From contig OZ287077.1 of assembly GCA_965645245.1 (NCBI GenBank), positions 372,001 to 436,000 on the forward strand: 64,000 nt of DNA, given 5' to 3'. The first letter of the stretch is position 1, and every line of letters starts with the position of its first letter. Below the pieces are notes generated by a model that was not told the DNA's origin, searched no databases, and was given only the letters and a program-made list of their open reading frames with translations. Shown piece by piece: positions 14,002 through 27,341 of the stretch. The stretch is from Massalongia carnosa. Taxonomy: Eukaryota. The position numbers were made by a program, and so were the translations under genes.

Positions 14002-14592
14002 ACTATGGCTATATGGCTATGATAAAAATGGTATGTATGACCGTGATATTAAGGATGAAGAGTGCTGTTCAGCAGTCTTTTGTCACGGTTCAACCACATC
14101 CAAGGCCAATCGAAGGAAAGTACGGCATCTGCCGGCGTACTAACCGCTTCCGTTACTCAACCATTATAGCAATCATAGGGCAATCAACGGAGGTCTAAAA
14201 GGACTGAAAGGGACGCATTGGAACGACCTTCTAAAGCAAATACAAATGGATGTGTTGAAATAGGTATATGACTATGGCTATATGGCTATGTAATAATAAA
14301 GGTATGTATGACCGTGATGTTAAGGATGAAGAGTTGCTATGCAGCAATCTTTTCCTATTACTGGTCACCCTTCTAAGCGAGGTGATCTTATCTTATCTTG
14401 GGACTAAGCCTAATGCGGCATCTACGGTTTCCGTAGATCATCTGTCAATCTAGGGCAGCCGTAGGTGCTATGTTCATTGAATTGATAGGTGTTCATTGTG
14501 CTGGTTGGAATTGGATATTCAACACCCCCCCTCAAGTCCTACCAGTACTTGTTTCCATCGTAGATTCAACCGTGATTGAACTTCTTAACCTC

Positions 14593-17500
14593 TCATGTCT
14601 GTTTGTCCATGTTGAGCTGTCTCATAAAGGAGAAGAACTTGACGTGCGTAAGGGGTTTTGTCAGTCCATCTGCAAACATGTCTTCGGTCGGAACATAGGT
14701 GAGGTCGATTCTTCCTTCTAGCACCTCGTTTCGTATGAAGTGGTGCTGAATGTCGATATGCTTGGTCCTGGAGTGTAATATGGGATTATTGGCCAGTGCT
14801 ATGGCGCTTTGGTTGTCGCCTTTCAATGCAATTGTGCCTTCTCCTCTTAACACGTTTATTGTCGGGGATCCGTCATCAGAAGTCATCAATCCGAGTTCAG
14901 TCATCAGTAAACGTAGCCATGTAGCCTCCTTTGCTGCTAAGGTGAGTGCCATATACTCTGCTTCGGTTGATGACAATGCGACGGTCGTTTGTCTTTTGGA
15001 ACACCAGCTTATTGGTCCATTGTTCAGCATGAACACATAACCCGAGGTGGATTTTCGCTGCTCTTTGTCTCCGGCCCAGTCAGAGTCAGAATATCCTTGT
15101 ATACATAAATCTCCCCCACCGAAGGTGATGCCTCTATTCTTGGTACCGCTAAGGTATCTGAGAATGTGTTTGGCCGCTTCCATATGTGTTTTGCCTGGAT
15201 TCTTTGCATGGCGACTGACTACGGACGTTGTGAAAGCTATGTCTGGCCTGGTTTCTATCATTGCGAACATGATGGATCCAACCATGGTTTGATATTGCTT
15301 TATGTCCTTGTCGGAGGCCTGAGATTCATTGATGAAGAGACAGCCTTCTCGCATGGGAGTGTTTGTTGTCTTTGCGGTTTGCATATGGAATCTTTCCAAT
15401 ACCTTCTTGATATAGGCTGGTTGAGATAGCTTTATGGTTTTGTTGACTCGATCTCGTTCGACTTTGAGGCCTAAATAGTAGCTGATTGGTCCCATGTCTA
15501 CCATCTTGAAAGCTAGCTTGAGCTGTTTCTTGACTTCGGTGATCATCGGGGAACCTTTTGGGCCTATGATGTTCAAATCGTCAACGAAAGAGGTAACAAT
15601 GGGTCCTTTTATCCCTTGAGATGTGGCGAAGATGCTATGATCTGCGTGGAGTTTCTCCAGTCCTAATTTGCTCAATAGAAAAGCTGATAGTCGTTCATAC
15701 CAGAGACGCGGAGACTGTTTCAAACCGTACAGGGCTTTATTCAGCCTGCACACCATGCCAGCTGTGTCATATCCTTTCGGCATGTGGACATAGATGAGTT
15801 GATCGATGAGACCGTTCAGAAAAGCTGTCACTATATCCAGTTGCTCGATGTCCAGATCATGATGGGCAGCTAGCGCGAATAGCAAGCGAAAAGCCATTGG
15901 TTTGACCACAGATGCAAAGTTTTGATCGAAATCTACTCCGTATTGTTGTAGATATCCTTTGACAACCCATCTGGCTTTAAAGCGAACGATCTTTCCATTT
16001 ACGTCCCGTTTCAGCTTGAATACCCATTTGCCACTCAAGACTATATGTCCGGGTTCCGTGGACTCGGTGGATAATGTATCCCAGGTGTTGTTCTCCAGCA
16101 GACTTTTGATCTCCTCATCCATTGCCAGACTCCATTCGTTTGCGTATTTGGAGTTCATTGCTTGATGATATGTTTGTGGCTCAGCTGTGTCTGACTGAAT
16201 GAACGCATCGTAGTCGTTCAGGTATGCTGCTCCCTCTATTTCCAGTTCTTTGGCCAGAAGTATGAGTGGGTCTTCTTCGTCTCTATCTGCCAGTGTGGGG
16301 ATGTGTTCTGGTTCACTTAATGCCTCATTTGACAGGAGACTCAGCACTTGTGCGACATGGGCGTGTTTTCTGGGTCTACCTCGTCCACGTTTGGGGATTT
16401 CACTTATCTTGGAATTCAACTCTGGTTGGTCTTTTGAAGGAGTGGGACTGATTTCGAGTGTGGTATCTTTTTCGTTTTGAATCATTATGGAATCGTACGT
16501 GGGTAGATCGGTCCCATCTTTGAATGTGGCGTCTTCATGAATCCGTAAGTCCTTGACCCTGATGACCTTGTAGTCTTTTTCCATAAAGACGCGATAGATG
16601 GTGCTTCCGTCATATCCACACAGGATTCCTTTCTGAGCCCTCGGAGAAAATTTAGCAGCCTTGCTGTTTAGTCCTTTTCGCTCTTCTTCGTGAATCAACG
16701 CATAGACTGTGGATCCGAGAATTCTCAGGTGATCCAGCTTAGGTGACTTCCTTCTCGAAGATCTCATACGGGGTTTTACCTGCCAAGGCGTTGGTTGGTC
16801 TGACGTTCTTGGTGTGAACCATGGCTAGAACTACTTCTGCCCACAAGTAATCGGGAATGTCTCCGGCAATGACACTGCATCTTGTCATGTCCATGATGGT
16901 TCTGCCCATTCGTTCCGCGACTCCGTTTTCTTCTTGAGAGTATGGAGCAGCTGGTTCAAACGTTATGCCTTGTTCCAGGAACCAAACGTCTGACTTGTGA
17001 CTGCGAAGCTCCGTACCGAAGTCAGTGCGAAAACTACTTATGGGTTTAGCCTTTCCAGATTTGTTTTGGGCCATGCTGTAGTACGTCAACAAGTGATCAA
17101 ACCATTCACTCTTCTTGTGTCCGGTATAGACATGAGTGTATCTGCTAGCATCACAGGTGAAAGTGAAGAAGTAAAGTTCTTCAAGAAGTCCTGCTGGCTT
17201 GATTGGTCCCACTAGGTCAGAGTTTATCTTTTGAAAGAGCTCTGTGGCCCTCTCTTGCTGTGTTCGGTTGTATATCTTTTTGGCTTTTCCCATTTCGCAT
17301 GCATGGCAAAACCAACCTTGGTTGATATCGTCATCGTACGTTATGTCTAGCGTTTTCAAATATTTTCGACACGTCGGAATGTTGAGATGACCAAGCCTTG
17401 CATGCCATGTAGTGAGTTTTGATTTGACAGATATTTGACAGATAGTGACGTCCAGTCCTTGATAGGTGTCCTCGTCCACTTTGCTCAAATGCATCCTCAT

Positions 17501-18847
17501 ATCCTGGGGTGTCAACGGTCTGTAGCATGAAGTTGTTGTCAACTCTCGGTACGTGCCCTATGACTTTTGCAGTGGATCCCATGAACAGTCTCCAGTTTGA
17601 ATTGTCATAGAAGATATCGTGTTAATTCAGCATTCCCAAACTCACAAGGTTCACCGGACATTGAGGAATGTAGAGAACATTGTTAAGAATCAGTATCGAC
17701 GAGGGTAAGCCGTCCTCCAAGATCAATGTCTTATGAATGGTTCCTCTTCCTGGCGACGTTCCTGTGGACGTTGACCCTGCTAGATCAGTGGAGTAGCTCG
17801 TATAGTCAGTGAACGAGTATCTGTGGTTGCATAGGTGCATATCTGCAGCGCTGTCCAATAACCACGAGTTCTTGTTCAGATCCGTCATGGTCATGACTTT
17901 TTGCAGTCTTGTGGCCATGACCTGTGTGAGTCAACTACTCACCGTTGGAATGTTGGGTGATGTATGAGGTAGTCCGCCTTCGTTTCTGACGAGGTAGTCT
18001 TTTGTTTCTTTGCTCTTCCGGATTCGAGCGAACTTCTATGTCTTTTTAGCTGTGGAAACTTCTACCAACAGTTATCTGGCCAATGACGAGTGTTCTTTCT
18101 CTCGACACATTCAGAGAAGGTGCAGGTCCCAAATGGGGCTCGACCTCTCGAGTCAGGTGTGCTGATATGAAGTGCCTTGGTGTTTTTCATGTTGACAGAA
18201 TAAGCAACAATGGTCTTCATTGCTTCCGACAGGTTTGTGGTTTCGTGTGTCCAATCTCGTCGAAGTTGGGCTATCAATGGGGAATAGACGTCTGTGGTGT
18301 TACCCAGCATCATTCCCTGAAGCATGAACTCCACGGTATGCACATCCACTTTGGCCTTGTCGTCCAGCATTCCTTTAATTTTGTTTAAAGCGCTCTCGTA
18401 CTCTGCACAGTATAGGCTGGTGGTCTCGAAGTCAGTCATCTTCTTAGAACTAACCTTCAGAATGATGTCGCTGATGCTCATTGGTGCTATATCTTGGAAT
18501 CTATCCTTCAGGATTTTCCACATTTCTGCCGCATTCTTGTTGTCGATGAGGCTGTAATGGCACTCCGCAACTAATCCGTGAATGATTCCTATAGCCTTGG
18601 TCATCTCGGCCTTCTGTCTATTCTTCTCGTCACGCAGCTCTTTTACCAAGATGCTGACAGAAAGACCTTTGGCGTCGAAGCCTGCTTGTATTAAACCTTC
18701 CTTGATGGTTTCAGCGGTGATTTCTGATTGATTCTCTAGAATGGCTCATTCGCAGTTATTCTTGAGCAGAATGCCCTTCGTATAGCTTGCCCATGCCGAA
18801 TATCTTTCGGCCTTCTCCAAAAGATGTGACGTATCTATGATAGACAT
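14593..18847 (-). pseudogene. Copia-2 gag-pol with stops and frameshifts
   Basis: ATG 18847; WLLDSAAD, WHARLGH, NGVAER, FVDD, ADGLTK motifs spread over four ORFs; in-frame stops near 18747 and 18062. Confidence 0.9.
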
Positions 18848-19344
18848 AATGGGAGAATGGGGAGCAATTGAACAAGGCGAGAAACTTGTATAAGCAGTGA
18901 CTGAAAGAATGTGGATCTGTGACCTTTCTTATAGACAAGGAAAAGACTGTCCCTCCTTAGCCAGTGTCCACTCTGATGTCTCAACAGAGAAACCTGTTTG
19001 CTTAACATGCTTGTTTGCCATGATGAGAATTTCAACTTAGGCTTTTTCAAGGGTCCAATTGACCAAAATGAAATTGAGCGCAGGGTTCTTCCAATTTGAT
19101 TTAACCGGCCTTGGGCCGATTAAATAATAAGAGGCAACTGCCGCACAATCTCACCTAGTGCCTTAATGAGGCATAATTGCCAAAAAGAAAGGTCTTTGTG
19201 CCTTCGATCAATGAGTTTACTAAGCTCTTTGATGTCCGATGGATTTTGTATTTTTGCGTGTCCAGAATTCAATCGCGGTTGAAACTGACGCTTTGATGAT
19301 ATTTGTACCAATGGGGCGCTCAGGCCCAGCAATATACTTTTTTG

Positions 19345-19878
19345 CCATCGAGCTTAGCAAGGTCTTTGGTGTCCGAGGACTTGGTTGCCTTCGACCATCG
19401 AGCTTAGCAAGCTCTTTGGTGTCCGAGGACTTGGTTGCCTTCGACCATCGAGCTTAGCAAGCTCTTTGGTGTCCGAGGACTTGGTTGCCTTCGACCATCG
19501 AGCTTAGCAAGCTCTTTGGTGTCCGAGGACTTGATTGCCTTCGACCATCGAGCTTAGCAAGCTCTTTGGTGTCCGAGGACTTGGTTGCCTTCGACCATCG
19601 AGCTTAGCAAGGTCTTTGGTGTCCGAGGACTTGGTTGCCTTCGACCATCGAGCTTAGCAAGCTCTTTGGTGTCCGAGGACTTGATTGCCTTCGACCATCG
19701 AGCTTAGCAAGCTCTTTGGTGTCCGAGGACTTGATTGCCTTCGACCATCGAGCTTAGCAAGCTCTTTGGTGTCCGAGGACTTGATTGCCTTCGACCATCG
19801 AGCTTAGCAAGCTCTTTGGTGTCCGAGGACTTGGGTGCCTTCGACCATCGAGCTTAGCAAGCTCTTTGGTGTCCGAGG
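19345..19878. repeat. Tandem array, ~10.7 x 50 bp, in Copia-2 5' leader
   Basis: Unit CCATCGAGCTTAGCAAGCTCTTTGGTGTCCGAGGACTTGGTTGCCTTCGA; AGCTTAGCAA recurs exactly every 50 nt from 19351 to 19851. Confidence 0.97.
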
Positions 19879-20672
19879 GCTTCGGTGTAGTACGATCAAT
19901 GTGTTCATGCTCTTTCTAACACGCAATTTTTGTGCTTCTGACAAGAAATCGCTGTGTACAGAGTGTACAGAAGAGAGAACTGATTGATGTGATTTGAGGG
20001 ATCGTTCCTAAAGACACAGAAAAATTTTAGTCATGTGTCTACGATTCATTGAATAGGAACGATGCTTAGCTGATTGCACTGCGATGCTGCGGATTAAAAG
20101 TTTCGATTCGTTTTAAATCGATAGCACCCTTCCGGGCTCATAACCTGTTGAAATAGGTATATGACTATGGCTATATGGCTATGTAATAATAAAGGTATGT
20201 ATGACCGTGATGTTAAGGATGAAGAGTTGCTATGCAGCAATCTTTTCCTATTACTGGTCACCCTTCTAAGCGAGGTGATCTTATCTTATCTTGGGACTAA
20301 GCCTAATGCGGCATCTACGGTTTCCGTAGATCATCTGTCAATCTAGGGCAGCCGTAGGTGCTATGTTCATTGAATTGATAGGTGTTCATTGTGCTGGTAG
20401 GAATTGGATATTCAACAGGATGAAAGGGACAAAGGGCAGAAAGACTGTTTGACTAAACTGTTCACTTATTGATAAAGACAAAAGCAGCTGGATCGGGCCA
20501 AGCGATTATCTATATAGACTCCTAGAGAGGCACGCGGGTGAAAAAAAAAGCGCAAGGTGAGCCGAAATTCCCCCACCAAAACTTACCCTTTTCTTCCCTT
20601 TTTTCTTCCCCATCTTCTTCCCCATTCAATATTTCAATTCGTATGACCATTGAAATTCTATATACATTCTAT

Positions 20673-22122
20673 TCAATAGCCTGTCATCGCCCCCTCAGCC
20701 CTAATTACCTCTTCGACTCGTTTGGGCATTGATCGAACTCTTTCATTGATGAATTCCTGCGTCACCCGTTCCCATCCATCCCTAATCAGCTGCTTCAAGC
20801 TGACATCGTCCCAATGAGGATACTTTCGAATTTGCTGATTCGCTGGCTGCCAGCAATTTTCTATAAGGGACAAATCAGGTGATGAGGCAAAATTGAAATA
20901 ATGCTCTAAATGATGATCTTCCTTCCATTTCTTGACGGAATTTCGTGTCTTGCCCGTGCCATGACCAGAGTCTCCATTGTCATGGAGTGACTGAGCACCT
21001 GCCAGTTAGTTCATTGAATCAACCTCAACCTTAGCTGCTTGAACAAAGCACTAGCCGGCTAGCCGATCCGAAAGGAACTAAGCTTAATCCGGTTCAGTCA
21101 GGGCAAAGGTAAGTGTTCCGACTGTCAATAGTGTCATGGCGATAGTTCATGCCAGGGACTTGGGGGAAATTGGATCAACGGCTGGATTGGGACTAGTTCC
21201 GTTCGCCAGAGTCTTATACTCGCCCACGTTGGATTTCTGTTTCTTTTCTCCTTGTCGAACGTCTTGTCCATCTAGCTAGACAATCAAGTAATACGTTTGC
21301 ACCATCTGAATTTCTACCTGACCTCGCACCGTGACATCTATCTTCTTCAAGTACGAAGTCATCCCCACGCTCCAGCTAGGGCTTGACGACGGGGTCAAGA
21401 ACGGATTTAATATACACCTGATGAGTCATTTTACCATTGCTGTTGCCCGGCACGTCATAAAAGATAATATCCGACTTGAAATTGTAGCCAATTGCAGCCC
21501 AGCAATGTTTTCGTTTTCGATCTTTTTCAGGAGGCGGGTCACGATGCTGTAAGTAATCCCAACGATATCGTGTTCCGGGCTGACGAATGATGCGTAACTG
21601 TCCTTCCGGCCCATATCCAAAATGAATCTCATCACTAAATCGTACGCGATCCAATTGCTCCGGTTTGGTCAGAATCATGTGAGCAAATTCGACCCGTCTT
21701 TCCATAGGTGGGTCGGCCAGCTATCCCTTGACGCAGGCCAGACATTTCTCATAGTTTAGAGCAGCCGACATAAAATTGTGCATTGTACGACCGACAACGT
21801 CGGCCCCAATCTCCATAGCCAATTGTTCCCATGTGTATCGTTTTCCTTCCAACTGTGGCCCCTTATCTTGTAGAATCTTATCTGCCTCCTGTATTTGTGC
21901 TTCCGTGACTTTTGATTTGCGACCGCGTGTCTCAACGAGCGTTGAATGATGTCTTCTTCTAGAAGATGCTCCGTTTCGAATGATCTTATAGCCCTGTCTC
22001 TCGCTTCGAATGCCAAGATGCTGAAAAATCTCTCGAGGATCGATAGAAATGACTTTTGCAAGAAGAAATTCATAAGCTCCCTGCACCTTGGCCTTTTGAG
22101 GTGTATCGTAGTGGGATGGCAT
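20673..22122 (-). pseudogene. Tc1-like DD38E transposase, two TAG stops and a solo-LTR insertion
   Basis: Reconstructed RFSDEIHF ... VLEEDGDSGHG ... SSPDLSLIENCW ... SMPKRVEEVIRAEGAMTGY*. Confidence 0.88.
20978..21336. mobile_element. Solo LTR H (359 bp)
   Basis: TGTCA...TGACA, TSD TCCAT/TCTAT; removing it restores EEDGDSGHG. Confidence 0.85.
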
Positions 22123-22231
22123 TTGAAATGTTGAATGAGGAAGAAGATGGGGAAGATAAAGGGGAAGAAAAGGGGTAAGTTTTGGTGGGGGAGTTTCGGC
22201 TCACCTTGCCCTTTTTTTTTCACCCGCGTGA

Positions 22232-22402
22232 TGTAACGGTTCGACCATGCGTGGTGCGGACGGCAGGACCTACAGCGAACATAGCAAGAGTCCCAGTTAT
22301 AGAAGAATAGAGCTTGGACTGCGGACTAAGTATTGTGCCTTTTGGTCGGGAAGGACAGGTGGCGCAATGGTAGAAATCTATTCACTATCTCGCTTCGTCA
22401 CA
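22232..22402. mobile_element. Solo LTR C copy 2
   Basis: TGTAAC...GTCACA, TSD CGTGA. Confidence 0.9.
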
Positions 22403-23656
22403 CGTGAGAGGGCACCTTTTGCTTGTTTCCTTTCTGCATCTTTGATATTTTCTAGTGCATAGCTTCCCAGTAAATAGTCAATTCCATATCCTGGTTGAAC
22501 CGTCACATCTTTGTCCTATAACTGGTCTGTGCTCCCTCATGCGAGTTGTCCTCTCTTTGCACCTTTCATCCCATCCCTTATGGCGGCAGGACAACTACTC
22601 CTCCATTCGGGTTGTACTTCCTTCATGGTGGCAGGGCATCTGCTTCCCCATTCGAGTTGTATCCTCGGCATCCTGCGGATGCCTTCTTCTATCTCCTTTA
22701 TGGTATCCTTCCTCCATGATGGCAGTATACCTGCTCCCTCATGTCGGTTGTCCTCGGTACCCTGCGGGAACCTCCTTCCATTCCCCTATCTCCCCCACGG
22801 CATTCGGCGAAACGGCAACCGAGAGGAATAAGAACATCGAGGTAATGTGTAGGCGAAGGTCGTAATTAAAAGGAAAGAAGTCAGGAATTGAGATCAATTG
22901 GGTGGTGGGTGGGTTAATAAACGAGTGAACCACGAGGTTATGACTGTTTGATGAAGGGACGTCGGTAGTAGTGACTAAGAAGCCAGTAGCCGGCGTTTAG
23001 AAAAGAAATCGATCCGGAGGCCTTCATAAAGACCAATCGATAATTGAGTTCGAAAGGCAGCCTTTTGAGGACTGTATCGAGTTTGAATAGCGACAAGGCG
23101 GTTGTTAGGTTCAACTGTGTGTCGCTGGATTGTCGAGTGGAGATTTGGATTGGCGACCTCTCATCGTCGCCGATTTGGCTTGTTTGTCTTCCGCTAAAGA
23201 CACGTATCGAGCTGCCGTTTTCACCTGATTTGTCTCCTGACCCTCAAGAGACTCGTAATCAGTTGCCGAAGTGCTAATTCTCCCTTACCAAAAGGGACCG
23301 TAAAAAGCTGCCGGAATTCAGAGTAATCACGCGCTCTGACCACGGACACGCACACATCTCCCTTTATCCATGCCTACAAGGGGAAGCCTCATGCTAACCC
23401 GGGCTCATAACCAGTTAAATGGTATATCAGGTAGGGAGGAGAGAAGACTGCACGAAGGTGTGTTCTATTGAGATCTGTCTACACGACTATTATATACTGC
23501 CTAGCGCGCTAAGGCTCGTAGGGCTACACTACACCCGTAAAGGGGTTGGAGGATAATTTACAGTCCCGTGCCAAAAGCCTGCGGCCCAACCCGTAATTTT
23601 CGTGATTTCGCGTTTTCAACTCATCAACCCCCTATCTTCCACCTCCTCATTTCACC

Positions 23657-24742
23657 ATGCTTCGTGCTTCTTTGACCCCCATAAGTGGTACTCGGCCTCG
23701 TAACACTGAATTGACGCCATATCAACGTGGTATGATTGTTGAGGCTCAGGCATTGAGGCACACACCGACCAAGATTAGGAAGACTCTTAATTTCAATAAA
23801 TTGACCGTGCAGAGCACCATTCAGAAGCACTCAATTCGCAACGACGGCGTGTCTAAATCACGTTCTGGACGGCCTGAAGTGCTGTCAGAACGCGATCGAC
23901 GTTATATTATCAAGCATGCACGAATCAATCCACGAATCACTTATGCACAAATCAAACTAGAAGTAGGGCTCGGCTGCAGTCGTATGACTATTTATCGGGC
24001 ACTCAAACTGTATGGTTTAACCAACTGGGTGGCTAAAAAACGACCTTTATTGACGCCTGAGGTGGCCAAGAAACGATTGGATTGGTACTTGCTGCGGCGT
24101 GAGTGGACTTTTGAGCAGTGGTCAAGAGTTATATGGTCAGATGAGTGCTCGGTGGAAAAGGGGTCAGGAAAACAGCGTCAGTGGGTATTCAGATTGCCGA
24201 AAGAAAAACGGAATAAAGAGATGATACAACCTATCCCCAAAGGCAAAGGAGTCAGTGTCATGGTCTGGGCAGCTTTTTGGGGAGATGACAGGTCAGATCT
24301 TTACAAATTGGCTCGTGATTTTGCTGCGAAGAAGATGGGGTACTCGGCGAACTCATATATGGAATTATTGAACGATAATCTGCTTGGAATTTGGCAACCG
24401 GGCCTCATTTTCATGCAGGATAACGCACCTATACATAAGGCTAAAAAGGTGATGGAATGGTTCAATGAGAACAGCATAGAGGTCATCGATTGGCCCCCCT
24501 ATACACCTGATTTAAATCCCATCGAGCACGTTTGGTATGTGCTCAAAAAGCTCGTCTATCAAGTCAACCCGAACATAGATTTGGTGATCGGCAGTGATGA
24601 AACAGTTCGTGAGGTACTTTGGAAAGCGTTAGAAGAAGCATGGACGTTGATAGATGTGAAAATGATGAGGAGGTTAATAGAAAGCATGAATAGGAGGATA
24701 AAAGCGTGTATAGCGTCGGAAGGATGGTATACTAAATATTAA
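23657..24742 (+). CDS. Tc1 DD34E transposase, intact, 361 aa
   Basis: RSGRP HTH linker, WSDE, MQDNAPIH-x-PDLNPIE with 34-residue spacing. Confidence 0.93.
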   Translation: MLRASLTPISGTRPRNTELTPYQRGMIVEAQALRHTPTKIRKTLNFNKLTVQSTIQKHSIRNDGVSKSRSGRPEVLSERDRRYIIKHARINPRITYAQIKLEVGLGCSRMTIYRALKLYGLTNWVAKKRPLLTPEVAKKRLDWYLLRREWTFEQWSRVIWSDECSVEKGSGKQRQWVFRLPKEKRNKEMIQPIPKGKGVSVMVWAAFWGDDRSDLYKLARDFAAKKMGYSANSYMELLNDNLLGIWQPGLIFMQDNAPIHKAKKVMEWFNENSIEVIDWPPYTPDLNPIEHVWYVLKKLVYQVNPNIDLVIGSDETVREVLWKALEEAWTLIDVKMMRRLIESMNRRIKACIASEGWYTKY

Positions 24743-24780
24743 AAATCAAGTTTTGGGGGAATTCTTGTTTAGTATGTATG

Positions 24781-25054
24781 TGTTGAAATAGGTGTATGAC
24801 TATGGCTATATGGCTATGTAATAATAAAGGTATGTATGACGTTGATTTTGGGGATGAAGAGTTGCTAGGCAGCAATCTTTTCCTACTACTGGTCACCCCC
24901 TTCTAAGCGAGGTGATCTTATCTTATCTTGGGACTAAGCCTAATGCGGCATCTACGGTTTCCGTAGATGATCTGTCCATCTAGGGCAGCCGTAGGTGCTA
25001 TGTTCATCGTACTGATAGGTGTTTATTGTACTGGTAGGAATTGGATATTCAACA
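24781..25054. mobile_element. Solo LTR D (Copia-2 family, 274 bp)
   Basis: Similar to 14253-14524; TSD GTATG. Confidence 0.92.
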
Positions 25055-26959: not shown

Positions 26960-27341
26960 CAGGATATGAAATTGAGTATCTACTGGGAAGCTATATACAG
27001 AAAGGAAACAAGCAAAGAGTGCCCTCTCTAGGAGTCTATATAGATAATCGCTTGGCCTGATCTAGCTGCTTGTGTCTTCATAAATTAGTGAACAGTATAG
27101 TCAAATAGTCTTTCTCTCCTTTGTCTCTTTCTTCTATTTGTGATTGCTTTAGAGGGTCGTTCCGATGCGTCTCTTTTAATCCTTTCAGACCTCCGTTGAT
27201 TACCCCTATAATTGCTTGATAGTGACCGACCACCTAAGGTTTCCGTTGATAGAAATTTGGTTTAGTGTCCCGGAGCTTCGGTCCCTATGACCGTCTAATC
27301 TACCGTTAAAAGGGATAAGTTACTGAAGCGGTTAGTGCGCC

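What the first reader, a model, noticed from the sequence alone, without database searches (positions are those of the whole stretch)
20526..22411. Tc1-like DD38E transposon with CAC termini and a 5-bp TSD instead of TA
Seen: ~108-bp TIRs starting CACGCGGGTG, with the ATG directly after one TIR. Left flank is CCTAG-AGAGG; right flank after removing LTR C is AGAGG-GCACC. The paralogous LTR G supplies the empty site CCTAGAGAGGGCAC, so exactly AGAGG was duplicated and no TA is involved. The reconstructed enzyme has Tc1/IS630-type motifs (FSDE; EEDGDSGHG; SPDLSLIENCW) with 38 residues between D and E. Known: IS630-Tc1-mariner elements characteristically duplicate TA, whereas CAC ends with 5-bp TSDs typify Transib/RAG, whose transposase looks different. 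Inference: a fungal Tc1-related lineage with altered target stagger and no TA requirement. I cannot confirm it is undescribed.
Basis: partly seen in the sequence, partly recalled or inferred. Interest (0 to 1): 0.8.

Follow-up and report, generated by a model that had tools for sequence, protein, structure and literature searches.

The report
Fungal Tc1 transposons duplicating five bases
A widespread group of fungal jumping genes has the enzyme of the Tc1/Sleeping Beauty family, yet it inserts into GC-rich sites and copies five bases instead of the TA pair that normally marks that family, which offers a natural test of how these enzymes set the spacing of their cuts.

Summary
Confirmed, and much wider than one insertion. 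The window element (20531-22230, CAC...GTG ends, 107/108-bp TIRs, broken DD38E transposase) duplicated AGAGG. In its own genome, 51 of 67 copies from four subfamilies have a perfect 5-bp TSD (0.29 expected by chance), and none is TA-flanked. So do 15 of 25 further copies and 22 of 39 metagenome relatives (41-57% identity). All three sets show the same target palindrome, TAN^CCWGG-NTA.

The enzyme is ITm/Tc1-type: Pfam DDE_3, and the fold matches Sleeping Beauty (Z 20.5) and Mos1. The 5-bp members lie in one clade (100/100). A related family in the same genome keeps a 2-bp, mostly TA, duplication, so the 5-bp stagger looks derived.

CAC ends also occur on TA-flanked elements. TA is still preferred, just outside the duplication.

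Ten paper searches found no description; Repbase and Dfam could not be checked. The scan once noted a single similar insertion in another genome (e1-7639546). New variant of a known kind.

The parts
20526..20530 (+). Left target-site duplication AGAGG; preceded by CC-TAG, which fits the clade's TAN^ target consensus
20531..20637 (+). TIR at the 3' end of the gene, 107 bp, starting CACGCGGGTGAAAA
20673..22122 (-). Tc1-type DD38E transposase gene (364 aa in intact copies). In this copy it is broken by two premature stops, a 9-bp deletion near 21665 and an LTR inserted at the second catalytic aspartate
20978..21336 (.). 359-bp solo LTR (TG...CA) inserted into the transposase gene; its own TSD is TCCAT (20973-20977) / TCTAT (21337-21341)
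22123..22230 (-). TIR at the 5' end of the gene, 108 bp, directly followed by the ATG
22232..22402 (+). 171-bp solo LTR inserted at the element's right junction; its TSD is CGTGA (22227-22231 / 22403-22407)
22407..22411 (+). Right target-site duplication AGAGG (seen once the solo LTR and one CGTGA are set aside)
27023..27027 (-). Single AGAGG in the paralogous LTR: the empty-site reference CCTAG-AGAGG-GCAC

Best explanation
This is a dead, LTR-interrupted copy of a ~1.3-kb cut-and-paste DNA transposon. It belongs to a distinct clade of ITm/Tc1-type transposases, widespread in filamentous ascomycetes. SHOWN: one ORF between TIRs; ITm fold; termini C(A/T)C or CAA; a variable 5-bp GC-rich TSD; a conserved target palindrome of about 11 bp, TAN^CCWGG-NTA; recent amplification in this genome. 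INFERRED from Tc1/mariner chemistry: the enzyme binds its TIRs as a dimer, excises the element and joins the two 3' ends to opposite target strands; gap repair then makes the TSD. INFERRED: in this clade the two active sites attack phosphates 5 nt apart instead of 2, so the target is bent and read differently: a soft C/G core with a central A/T, plus a TA just outside each cut. INFERRED, weaker: the change arose once, from a 2-bp ancestor, within fungi. Candidate determinants are the small residues at the Sleeping Beauty P247/K248 positions (S267/G268), a clade-specific V-P-x-N-x-N-G-K loop (227-234) and replacement of the W of WPxxSPDL (YFN, 290-292). The longer D-E spacer is not sufficient.
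For: TSD counts: 51 of 67 (expected 0.29); by subfamily A 12/20, B 18/24, C 17/17, D 4/7 (which includes one spurious mixed pair in B); 15 of 25 further own-genome copies and 22 of 39 metagenome loci, none TA-flanked. The target profile recurs in all three sets: T at -3 0.59-0.60, A at -2 0.57-0.68, C at TSD position 1 0.51-0.61, central A/T 38/51, 12/15, 18/22. Controls: an impala-like family in the same genome is TA-flanked in 17 of 18; cyanobacterial IS630 loci read TA|TAGC. Enzyme: DDE_3 is the only Pfam hit; SB100X is the only PDB sequence hit; the model (pLDDT 84.5) matches SB Z 20.5 (rmsd 3.2, 201 aligned), Metnase 19.3 and Mos1 19.1, against 10.2 for the next row. Tree: all 20 verified 5-bp rows lie in one 39-row clade, 100/100; it groups with fungal sisters (97/97) and then with the 2-bp family L302 (95/86). 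L302-family ends are preceded by TA in 19 of 29; its 7 paired copies give TA/TA 3, TT/TT 2, CA/TA 1, interrupted 1, and no 5-bp TSD. Subfamily C copies are 99.8% identical and most have open frames.
Against: 16 of 67, 10 of 25 and 17 of 39 called elements lack a perfect 5-bp TSD. Some are one-mismatch, nested insertions, swapped flanks (L350/L351) or mis-called inner repeats, but not all were explained. 14 of 80 own loci, and 34 of 80 metagenome and 11 of 42 extra own loci, gave no callable ends. A few copies share a site in paralogous repeats (L068/L077), so not all are independent. No transposition was observed; the link between enzyme and TSD is correlative. The TSD of the closest sister lineages (Zymoseptoria, Xylona, Pseudogymnoascus proteins) is unknown, and they share several candidate residues, so no determinant is pinned. 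Deep nodes are unresolved: the AU test did not reject placing the clade with IS630 (p 0.08). Polarity rests on one 2-bp relative plus the outgroups.
Confidence: 0.88

Rival explanations
1. The elements are moved in trans by an unrelated 5-bp-TSD enzyme (Transib/RAG-like or an integrase) that recognises the CAC ends, and the Tc1-like ORF is a passenger.
For: CAC termini with a GC-rich 5-bp TSD are the Transib/RAG pattern (recalled; PMC1131882 seen only as a search listing). The host enzyme repertoire was not surveyed.
Against: The single ORF fills the element. The TSD length and target profile follow the transposase clade across 41-100% identity and across TIR changes to CAA and CTC. The catalytic triad is conserved and young subfamilies keep open frames. 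Muszewska et al. report Transib absent from fungi (PMC5751038).
Confidence: 0.03
2. The 5-bp duplication is an artefact of boundary placement or of nesting in LTRs; the true TSD is TA or shorter.
For: The window copy sits in an LTR and is hit by two LTRs that make 5-bp TSDs themselves.
Against: TIR complementarity stops exactly at CAC/GTG. The duplicated 5-mers differ between copies (39 distinct among 51). Only length 5 is enriched; 0 of 67 are TA-flanked. The empty site has one AGAGG. The same kind of end-anchored count gives TA for the control family in 17 of 18.
Confidence: 0.01
3. The group is real but is a deep, separate ITm branch (a superfamily-level sister, like Zator or Sailor) rather than a lineage derived within fungal Tc1; 5 bp need not be the derived state.
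For: Long stem (0.53); basal nodes open; the AU test cannot reject grouping with IS630 (p 0.08); no HTH_Tnp_Tc3_2 hit for P0001, whereas the neighbouring TA element has one.
Against: The free tree nests it among fungal Tc1-like proteins with 97/97 and 95/86 support. It shares the CxxC-type motifs and the GGGTGACA TIR motif with the 2-bp L302 family. No close prokaryotic or viral relative was found: best prokaryotic hit 28%, IS630-like hits 25-33% over long segments.
Confidence: 0.2

Closest known systems
[quoted passage not shown]
   Same: About 1.3 kb, one ORF between TIRs; DDE_3 domain; FSDE, DxDxxH and SPDLxPIE motifs; GRK linker; bipartite helical N-terminus; catalytic fold Z 20.5.
   Different: 5-bp variable GC-rich TSD instead of TA; target TAN^CCWGG-NTA; D-E spacing mostly 37-41; KHGGG and WP motifs replaced (motif names recalled); 23% identity to SB in the structural alignment.
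Mos1 mariner (PDB 5hoo, 3hos)
   Same: Same fold over the DNA-binding and catalytic parts (Foldseek E about 1e-10; VIA Z 18.9-19.1).
   Different: Mos1 is DD34D and bends the target 147 degrees at TA (PMC8934666); a 5-nt stagger needs another geometry.
DD38E/Intruder
   Same: Same D-E count as this subfamily.
   Different: Intruder is reported only in animals (PMC7731502) and listed among TA-duplicating families (PMC8533490). The spacing varies within this clade. No Intruder sequence was compared directly.
Transib/RAG
   Same: CAC termini and a 5-bp GC-rich TSD (recalled).
   Different: 364-aa ITm enzyme with only 38 residues between D2 and E; no RAG1 Pfam hit; Transib is reported absent from fungi. 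Convergence.
Other fungal or atypical ITm groups: Sagan, Sailor, Dici, Trem, DTT_Birute
   Same: ITm-type transposases found in fungi.
   Different: Sagan TA with a long D-E insertion; Sailor TATA, DD78-111E; Dici TA, DD34E; TremA-F TA (TremH, 525 aa, has no defined target site); DTT_Birute reported as TA/CTCGTG with a 343-aa ORF, sequence not available to test.

Membership tests
ITm group (IS630-Tc1-mariner) | ITm-type DDE/D catalytic domain and fold | tested here: met
   PF13358 42.2 bits over cut-off 28.6; SB100X sequence hit E 3.5e-10; SB/Mos1/Metnase Z 19-20.5
ITm group (IS630-Tc1-mariner) | Single transposase ORF between TIRs, about 1.3 kb | tested here: met
   Most copies are 1.25-1.5 kb with one 362-364-aa ORF in intact subfamily-A copies
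ITm group (IS630-Tc1-mariner) | TA target-site duplication (stated in PMC7325037, PMC8533490, PMC13469147) | tested here: not met
   0 of 67, 0 of 25 and 0 of 39 TA-flanked; 5-bp TSD in 51, 15 and 22
DD34E/Tc1 family (strict) | 34 residues between D2 and E | tested here: not met
   38 in P0001; 37-41 in 17 of 20 verified members
DD34E/Tc1 family (strict) | Phylogenetic nesting among Tc1 transposases | tested here: inconclusive
   Nested in the free tree, but AU p 0.08 for grouping with IS630; reference rows were mostly unnamed database proteins
DD34E/Tc1 family (strict) | Paired-like HTH DNA-binding domain | tested here: inconclusive
   No PF01498 hit for P0001, though several homologs carry one; the model has two helical subdomains; Tc3 DNA-binding domain Z 5.0 only
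IS630 (prokaryotic) | NF033545 above cut-off; prokaryotic host; TA TSD | tested here: not met
   47.6 bits against cut-off 100; no close prokaryotic relatives
DD38E/Intruder | Monophyly with animal IT elements; TA TSD | tested here: not met
   The TSD is 5 bp, not TA. Monophyly itself was not tested: no IT sequence was available
Transib/RAG | CAC termini and 5-bp TSD (recalled) | tested here: met
Transib/RAG | RAG1-core-like transposase with a large insertion between D2 and E (recalled) | tested here: not met
   Only 38 residues between D2 and E; 364 aa; no PF12940 hit at E<=0.1
Transib/RAG | Structural match to Transib/RAG1 | tested here: inconclusive
   The best rows are SB, Metnase and Mos1; these lists cannot exclude other families
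Sagan | TA TSD and long D-E insertion (PMC3164196) | tested here: not met
An existing Repbase/Dfam family | Catalogued consensus with a 5-bp TSD | not testable with these tools
   No TE library is held; the FASTA supplements of PMC7325037 could not be read

The most novel reading that the evidence does not exclude
An undescribed, widespread ascomycete ITm family that switched from a 2-nt TA stagger to a 5-nt stagger on a TAN^CCWGG-NTA palindrome while keeping the Tc1 fold. With a 2-bp relative and very young copies in the same genome, it would be a natural pair for finding which residues set TSD length in a DDE transposase. It would also be a convergent arrival at the Transib/RAG end-and-target pattern.
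Probability: 0.55. Interest if true: 0.8.

Novelty: new variant of a known kind. Interest (0 to 1): 0.7.

Why it matters
TA duplication is treated as the hallmark of the ITm group, including in a 2026 fungal paper. A large clade that breaks it shows that TSD length can change within one transposase fold.

1. A structural question becomes testable. What sets the stagger can be probed by comparing or swapping loops between 5-bp enzymes and their 2-bp relatives.
2. Annotation is affected. Tools that call Tc1/mariner by TA, or read CAC ends as CACTA or Transib, would miss or misfile these elements (inference). Some of their proteins are annotated 'HMG box protein'.
3. It is a possible tool. A compact transposase preferring GC-rich sites could complement TA-targeting vectors; subfamily C looks recently active (99.8% identity, 17 of 17 perfect TSDs).

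Tried and rejected
IDEAS REJECTED
- That the longer D-E spacer (DD38E, insertion after DxDxxH) causes the 5-bp stagger: not sufficient, because the 2-bp L302 family has the insertion and is DD41E.
- CAC ends as a marker: rejected (L213 is TA|CAC).
- Sagan: rejected.

SEARCHES THAT GAVE NO SUPPORT
- Prokaryotic or viral origin: no plasmid hit, only weak IS630-type hits in GTDB, none in IMG/VR.
- Transib/RAG1 was not among the listed rows of either fold search; this does not exclude it.
- DNA for the closest sister lineages: own-genome searches with P0251, P0218 and P0295 found none above 41% identity; the viral scan gave one weak 32% hit. Their TSD stays unknown.
- AU test of clade + IS630: inconclusive.
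- Expression: no RNA holder listed. The read laying could not separate orthologous from paralogous empty sites.

LITERATURE
- Ten searches found no Tc1/ITm element with a 5-bp TSD.
- Five clade motifs and six accession or name terms were absent from the six readable supplements of PMC7325037; its three FASTA files were unreadable.
- PMC4112212, PMC5481204 and PMC1131882 were seen as listings only.

COUNTING CAVEATS
- The automatic end finder sometimes picked inner repeats (e.g. L122, L123, L157), so those counts are lower bounds.
- No complex prediction or ESM Atlas search was run.
Full report
OBSERVATION. The element runs from 20531 to 22230. Its TIRs are 107 and 108 bp, both start CACGCGGGTG, and the ATG follows one of them directly. 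The left flank is CCTAG-AGAGG. A 171-bp solo LTR (22232-22402, TSD CGTGA) sits at the right junction; beyond it the sequence reads AGAGG-GCACC. A paralogous LTR in the window has the empty site with one AGAGG. Contigs from 4 of 4 public runs laid on the region join 20524 to 22406, skipping 1881 nt, which equals element + LTR + two 5-bp duplications; they may come from paralogous LTRs. The window's gene is dead: a 359-bp solo LTR at the second catalytic aspartate, two stops and a 9-bp deletion.

GENOME-WIDE TEST. The 52-Mb genome holds more than 20 near-full copies of this subfamily and sister subfamilies at 75-78% and 55% protein identity. Of 80 loci examined, 14 gave no pair of ends; the rest gave 67 elements. 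Of these, 51 have an exact 5-bp TSD (0.29 expected from mismatched flank pairs), 3 have one mismatch, 13 do not match, none is TA-flanked and none has a 6-10-bp duplication. By subfamily: A 12/20, B 18/24, C 17/17, D 4/7, with one spurious pair in B. Median copy identity among the first 7-9 copies is 98.2, 99.1, 99.8 and 98.7%. Of 42 further loci, 6 were set aside as the sister family, 11 had no callable ends, and 15 of 25 had a perfect 5-bp TSD. Some misses are explained: the window copy, nested insertions, and one pair with reciprocally swapped flanks (L350/L351). Others are not. As a control, the neighbouring impala-like family is TA-flanked in 17 of 18 copies with both ends, out of 19 loci.

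BREADTH. A protein search gave 389 homologs at E<=1e-10; the named ones are from Bimuria, Clathrospora, Pyrenophora, Botrytis, Rutstroemia and Colletotrichum, and Trichodelitschia among the more distant ones. Of 80 metagenome loci fetched, 7 were duplicates and 34 had no callable ends; 22 of the remaining 39 (41-57% identity) have an exact 5-bp TSD (0.18 expected) and none is TA-flanked. Called termini are CAC 22, CAA 10 and CTC 7. No close relative was found in plasmids, GTDB genomes or viral contigs.

TARGET. The symmetrised profile is 5'-TAN^CCWGG-NTA-3'. T at -3 is 0.60, 0.60 and 0.59 and A at -2 is 0.62, 0.57 and 0.68 in the three sets; C is almost absent at -2; the central base is A/T in 38/51, 12/15 and 18/22. 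The TSDs are 65% GC against 46% in flanks; TA lies at -3/-2 or +2/+3 in 30 of 51 sites against a background of 0.057 per position. TA is therefore still favoured, but outside the duplicated bases. Subfamilies C and D have hit the same site in paralogous repeats (L063, L094), which fits sequence-directed targeting.

ENZYME. The intact copy P0001 (364 aa) hits only DDE_3 in Pfam, IS630 below cut-off in NCBIfam and only SB100X in the PDB. The model (pLDDT 84.5) matches Mos1, SB and SETMAR first, with Z 20.5, 19.3 and 19.1 against 10.2 for the next row. In a 90-row tree of the catalytic domain (LG+G4, 226 columns; 23 intended rows dropped because no whole domain could be cut out), all 20 verified 5-bp rows fall in one 39-row clade at 100/100. 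It groups with fungal proteins of unknown TSD (97/97) and then with the L302 family (95/86); deeper nodes are open. An AU test did not reject joining the clade to IS630 (p 0.08), so nesting inside Tc1 is likely but not shown.

POLARITY. The L302 family (27-28% identity, DD41E, ends CAAGGTTGGGTGAC) is preceded by TA at 19 of 29 ends, AA 4, TT 3, CA 2, TG 1. Its 7 paired copies give TA/TA 3, TT/TT 2, CA/TA 1 and one interrupted; none has a 5-bp TSD. It is a 2-bp family with relaxed TA preference that already has the longer D-E spacer, so the spacer alone does not set the stagger. D-E spacing in the verified 5-bp rows is 38 (7), 37 (7), 41 (2), 39 (1), plus 3 damaged.

MECHANISM. From Tc1/mariner chemistry (established knowledge), TSD length equals the distance between the two strand-transfer sites on the target. 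Mos1 bends its target 147 degrees at TA, and SB residues H187, P247 and K248 are modelled to contact target DNA and alter site choice when mutated (PMC8934666). In the SB alignment (D244 numbering recalled), P247/K248 correspond to S267/G268, fixed in 20/20 and 19/20 of the 5-bp rows. Columns conserved in the 5-bp rows and absent or rare in the 2-bp, sister and Tc1 rows include P175, R207, V227-P228-x-N230-x-N232, E262, Y290-F291 and Q307; N292 replaces the W found in 21 of 22 Tc1 rows. I infer a rebuilt target-binding face that holds the active sites 5 nt apart and reads flanking TA steps. Which residues matter is untested, and the closest sisters share some of them.

COMPARISON AND NOVELTY. 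It works like a Tc1 transposon but fails the ITm defining feature of TA duplication, so it is filed as a variant, not an ordinary member. It is not Transib: that likeness is in ends and TSD only (recalled), and Transib is reported absent from fungi (PMC5751038, passages). Sagan (PMC3164196, passages), Intruder (PMC7731502, passages), Sailor (PMC8533490, passages), Dici (PMC13469147, passages and section 12), TremA-F (PMC2836289, passages) and the Epichloe Tc1 MITEs (PMC3227409, passages) are all TA or TATA. DTT_Birute (PMC7174668, passages) is reported with TA and could not be tested. For PMC7325037 I saw passages, section 5, part 1 of 19 of the tree supplement and term searches of six supplements; none of the clade motifs or accessions appeared, but its FASTA files were unreadable and may bear on this. 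Passages of PMC10085805, PMC11544213, PMC2817418, PMC8773270 and PMC5915480 held nothing on such an element. Ten searches found no description. The library lacks most subscription journals and Repbase/Dfam, and from recall other non-TA exceptions exist (Tc4, Zator), so a catalogue entry remains possible. An earlier scan note (e1-7639546) saw one such insertion in another genome; it is not independent support.

VERDICT. Real, clade-wide and well supported (0.88). New variant of a known kind; probability about 0.55 that it is undescribed; interest 0.7.

Noticed in passing
L302, L325, L326, L332, L364-L393 (e.g. G000:C2:2262190-2263523): A Tc1-like DD41E family (ends CAAGGTTGGGTGAC) with a 2-bp TSD and relaxed specificity: 19 of 29 ends preceded by TA, 7 by TT/AA; two of seven pairs duplicate TT. 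It is related to the 5-bp clade.
   Followed up: partly
L350/L351 (G000:C12:908185-922118): Two inverted copies about 11 kb apart have reciprocally swapped 5-bp flanks (GCTAT/CCTGT), as expected from an inversion by recombination between them.
   Followed up: partly
L063 and L094; L068 and L077; L344, L345, L348: The same target site in paralogous repeats is occupied by different subfamilies (L063, L094) or by the same one on different contigs; hotspots, or copies carried by a larger replicating element.
   Followed up: no
window 23561-24781: An ordinary TA-flanked, impala-like DD34E Tc1 element, cut at its 3' end near 24781 where an LTR copy begins; about 40 copies in the genome; used as the control.
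   Followed up: yes
window 14253-20417: An LTR retrotransposon with two identical 272-nt LTRs, apparently inserted in the same older LTR that holds the finding; it carries a 50-bp tandem array at about 19245-19900.
   Followed up: no
L205-L214: Larger TIR elements (2.5-3.6 kb or more) with DDE_3 domains in short frames, possibly split by introns; one is TA-flanked with CAC ends.
   Followed up: no
P0062, P0086, P0406-P0409: Clade transposases are annotated as 'HMG box protein' in Pyrenophora tritici-repentis and Rutstroemia; P0062 lies on 14 contigs.
   Followed up: partly
P0153, P0176, P0184, P0189, P0216: Clade homologs with altered catalytic residues or long extensions; possibly decayed or domesticated copies.
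   Followed up: no
L221, L222 (bacterial MAG contigs): Two transposases on bacterial MAG contigs group with eukaryotic Tc1-like rows in the tree; possibly binning contamination.
   Followed up: no
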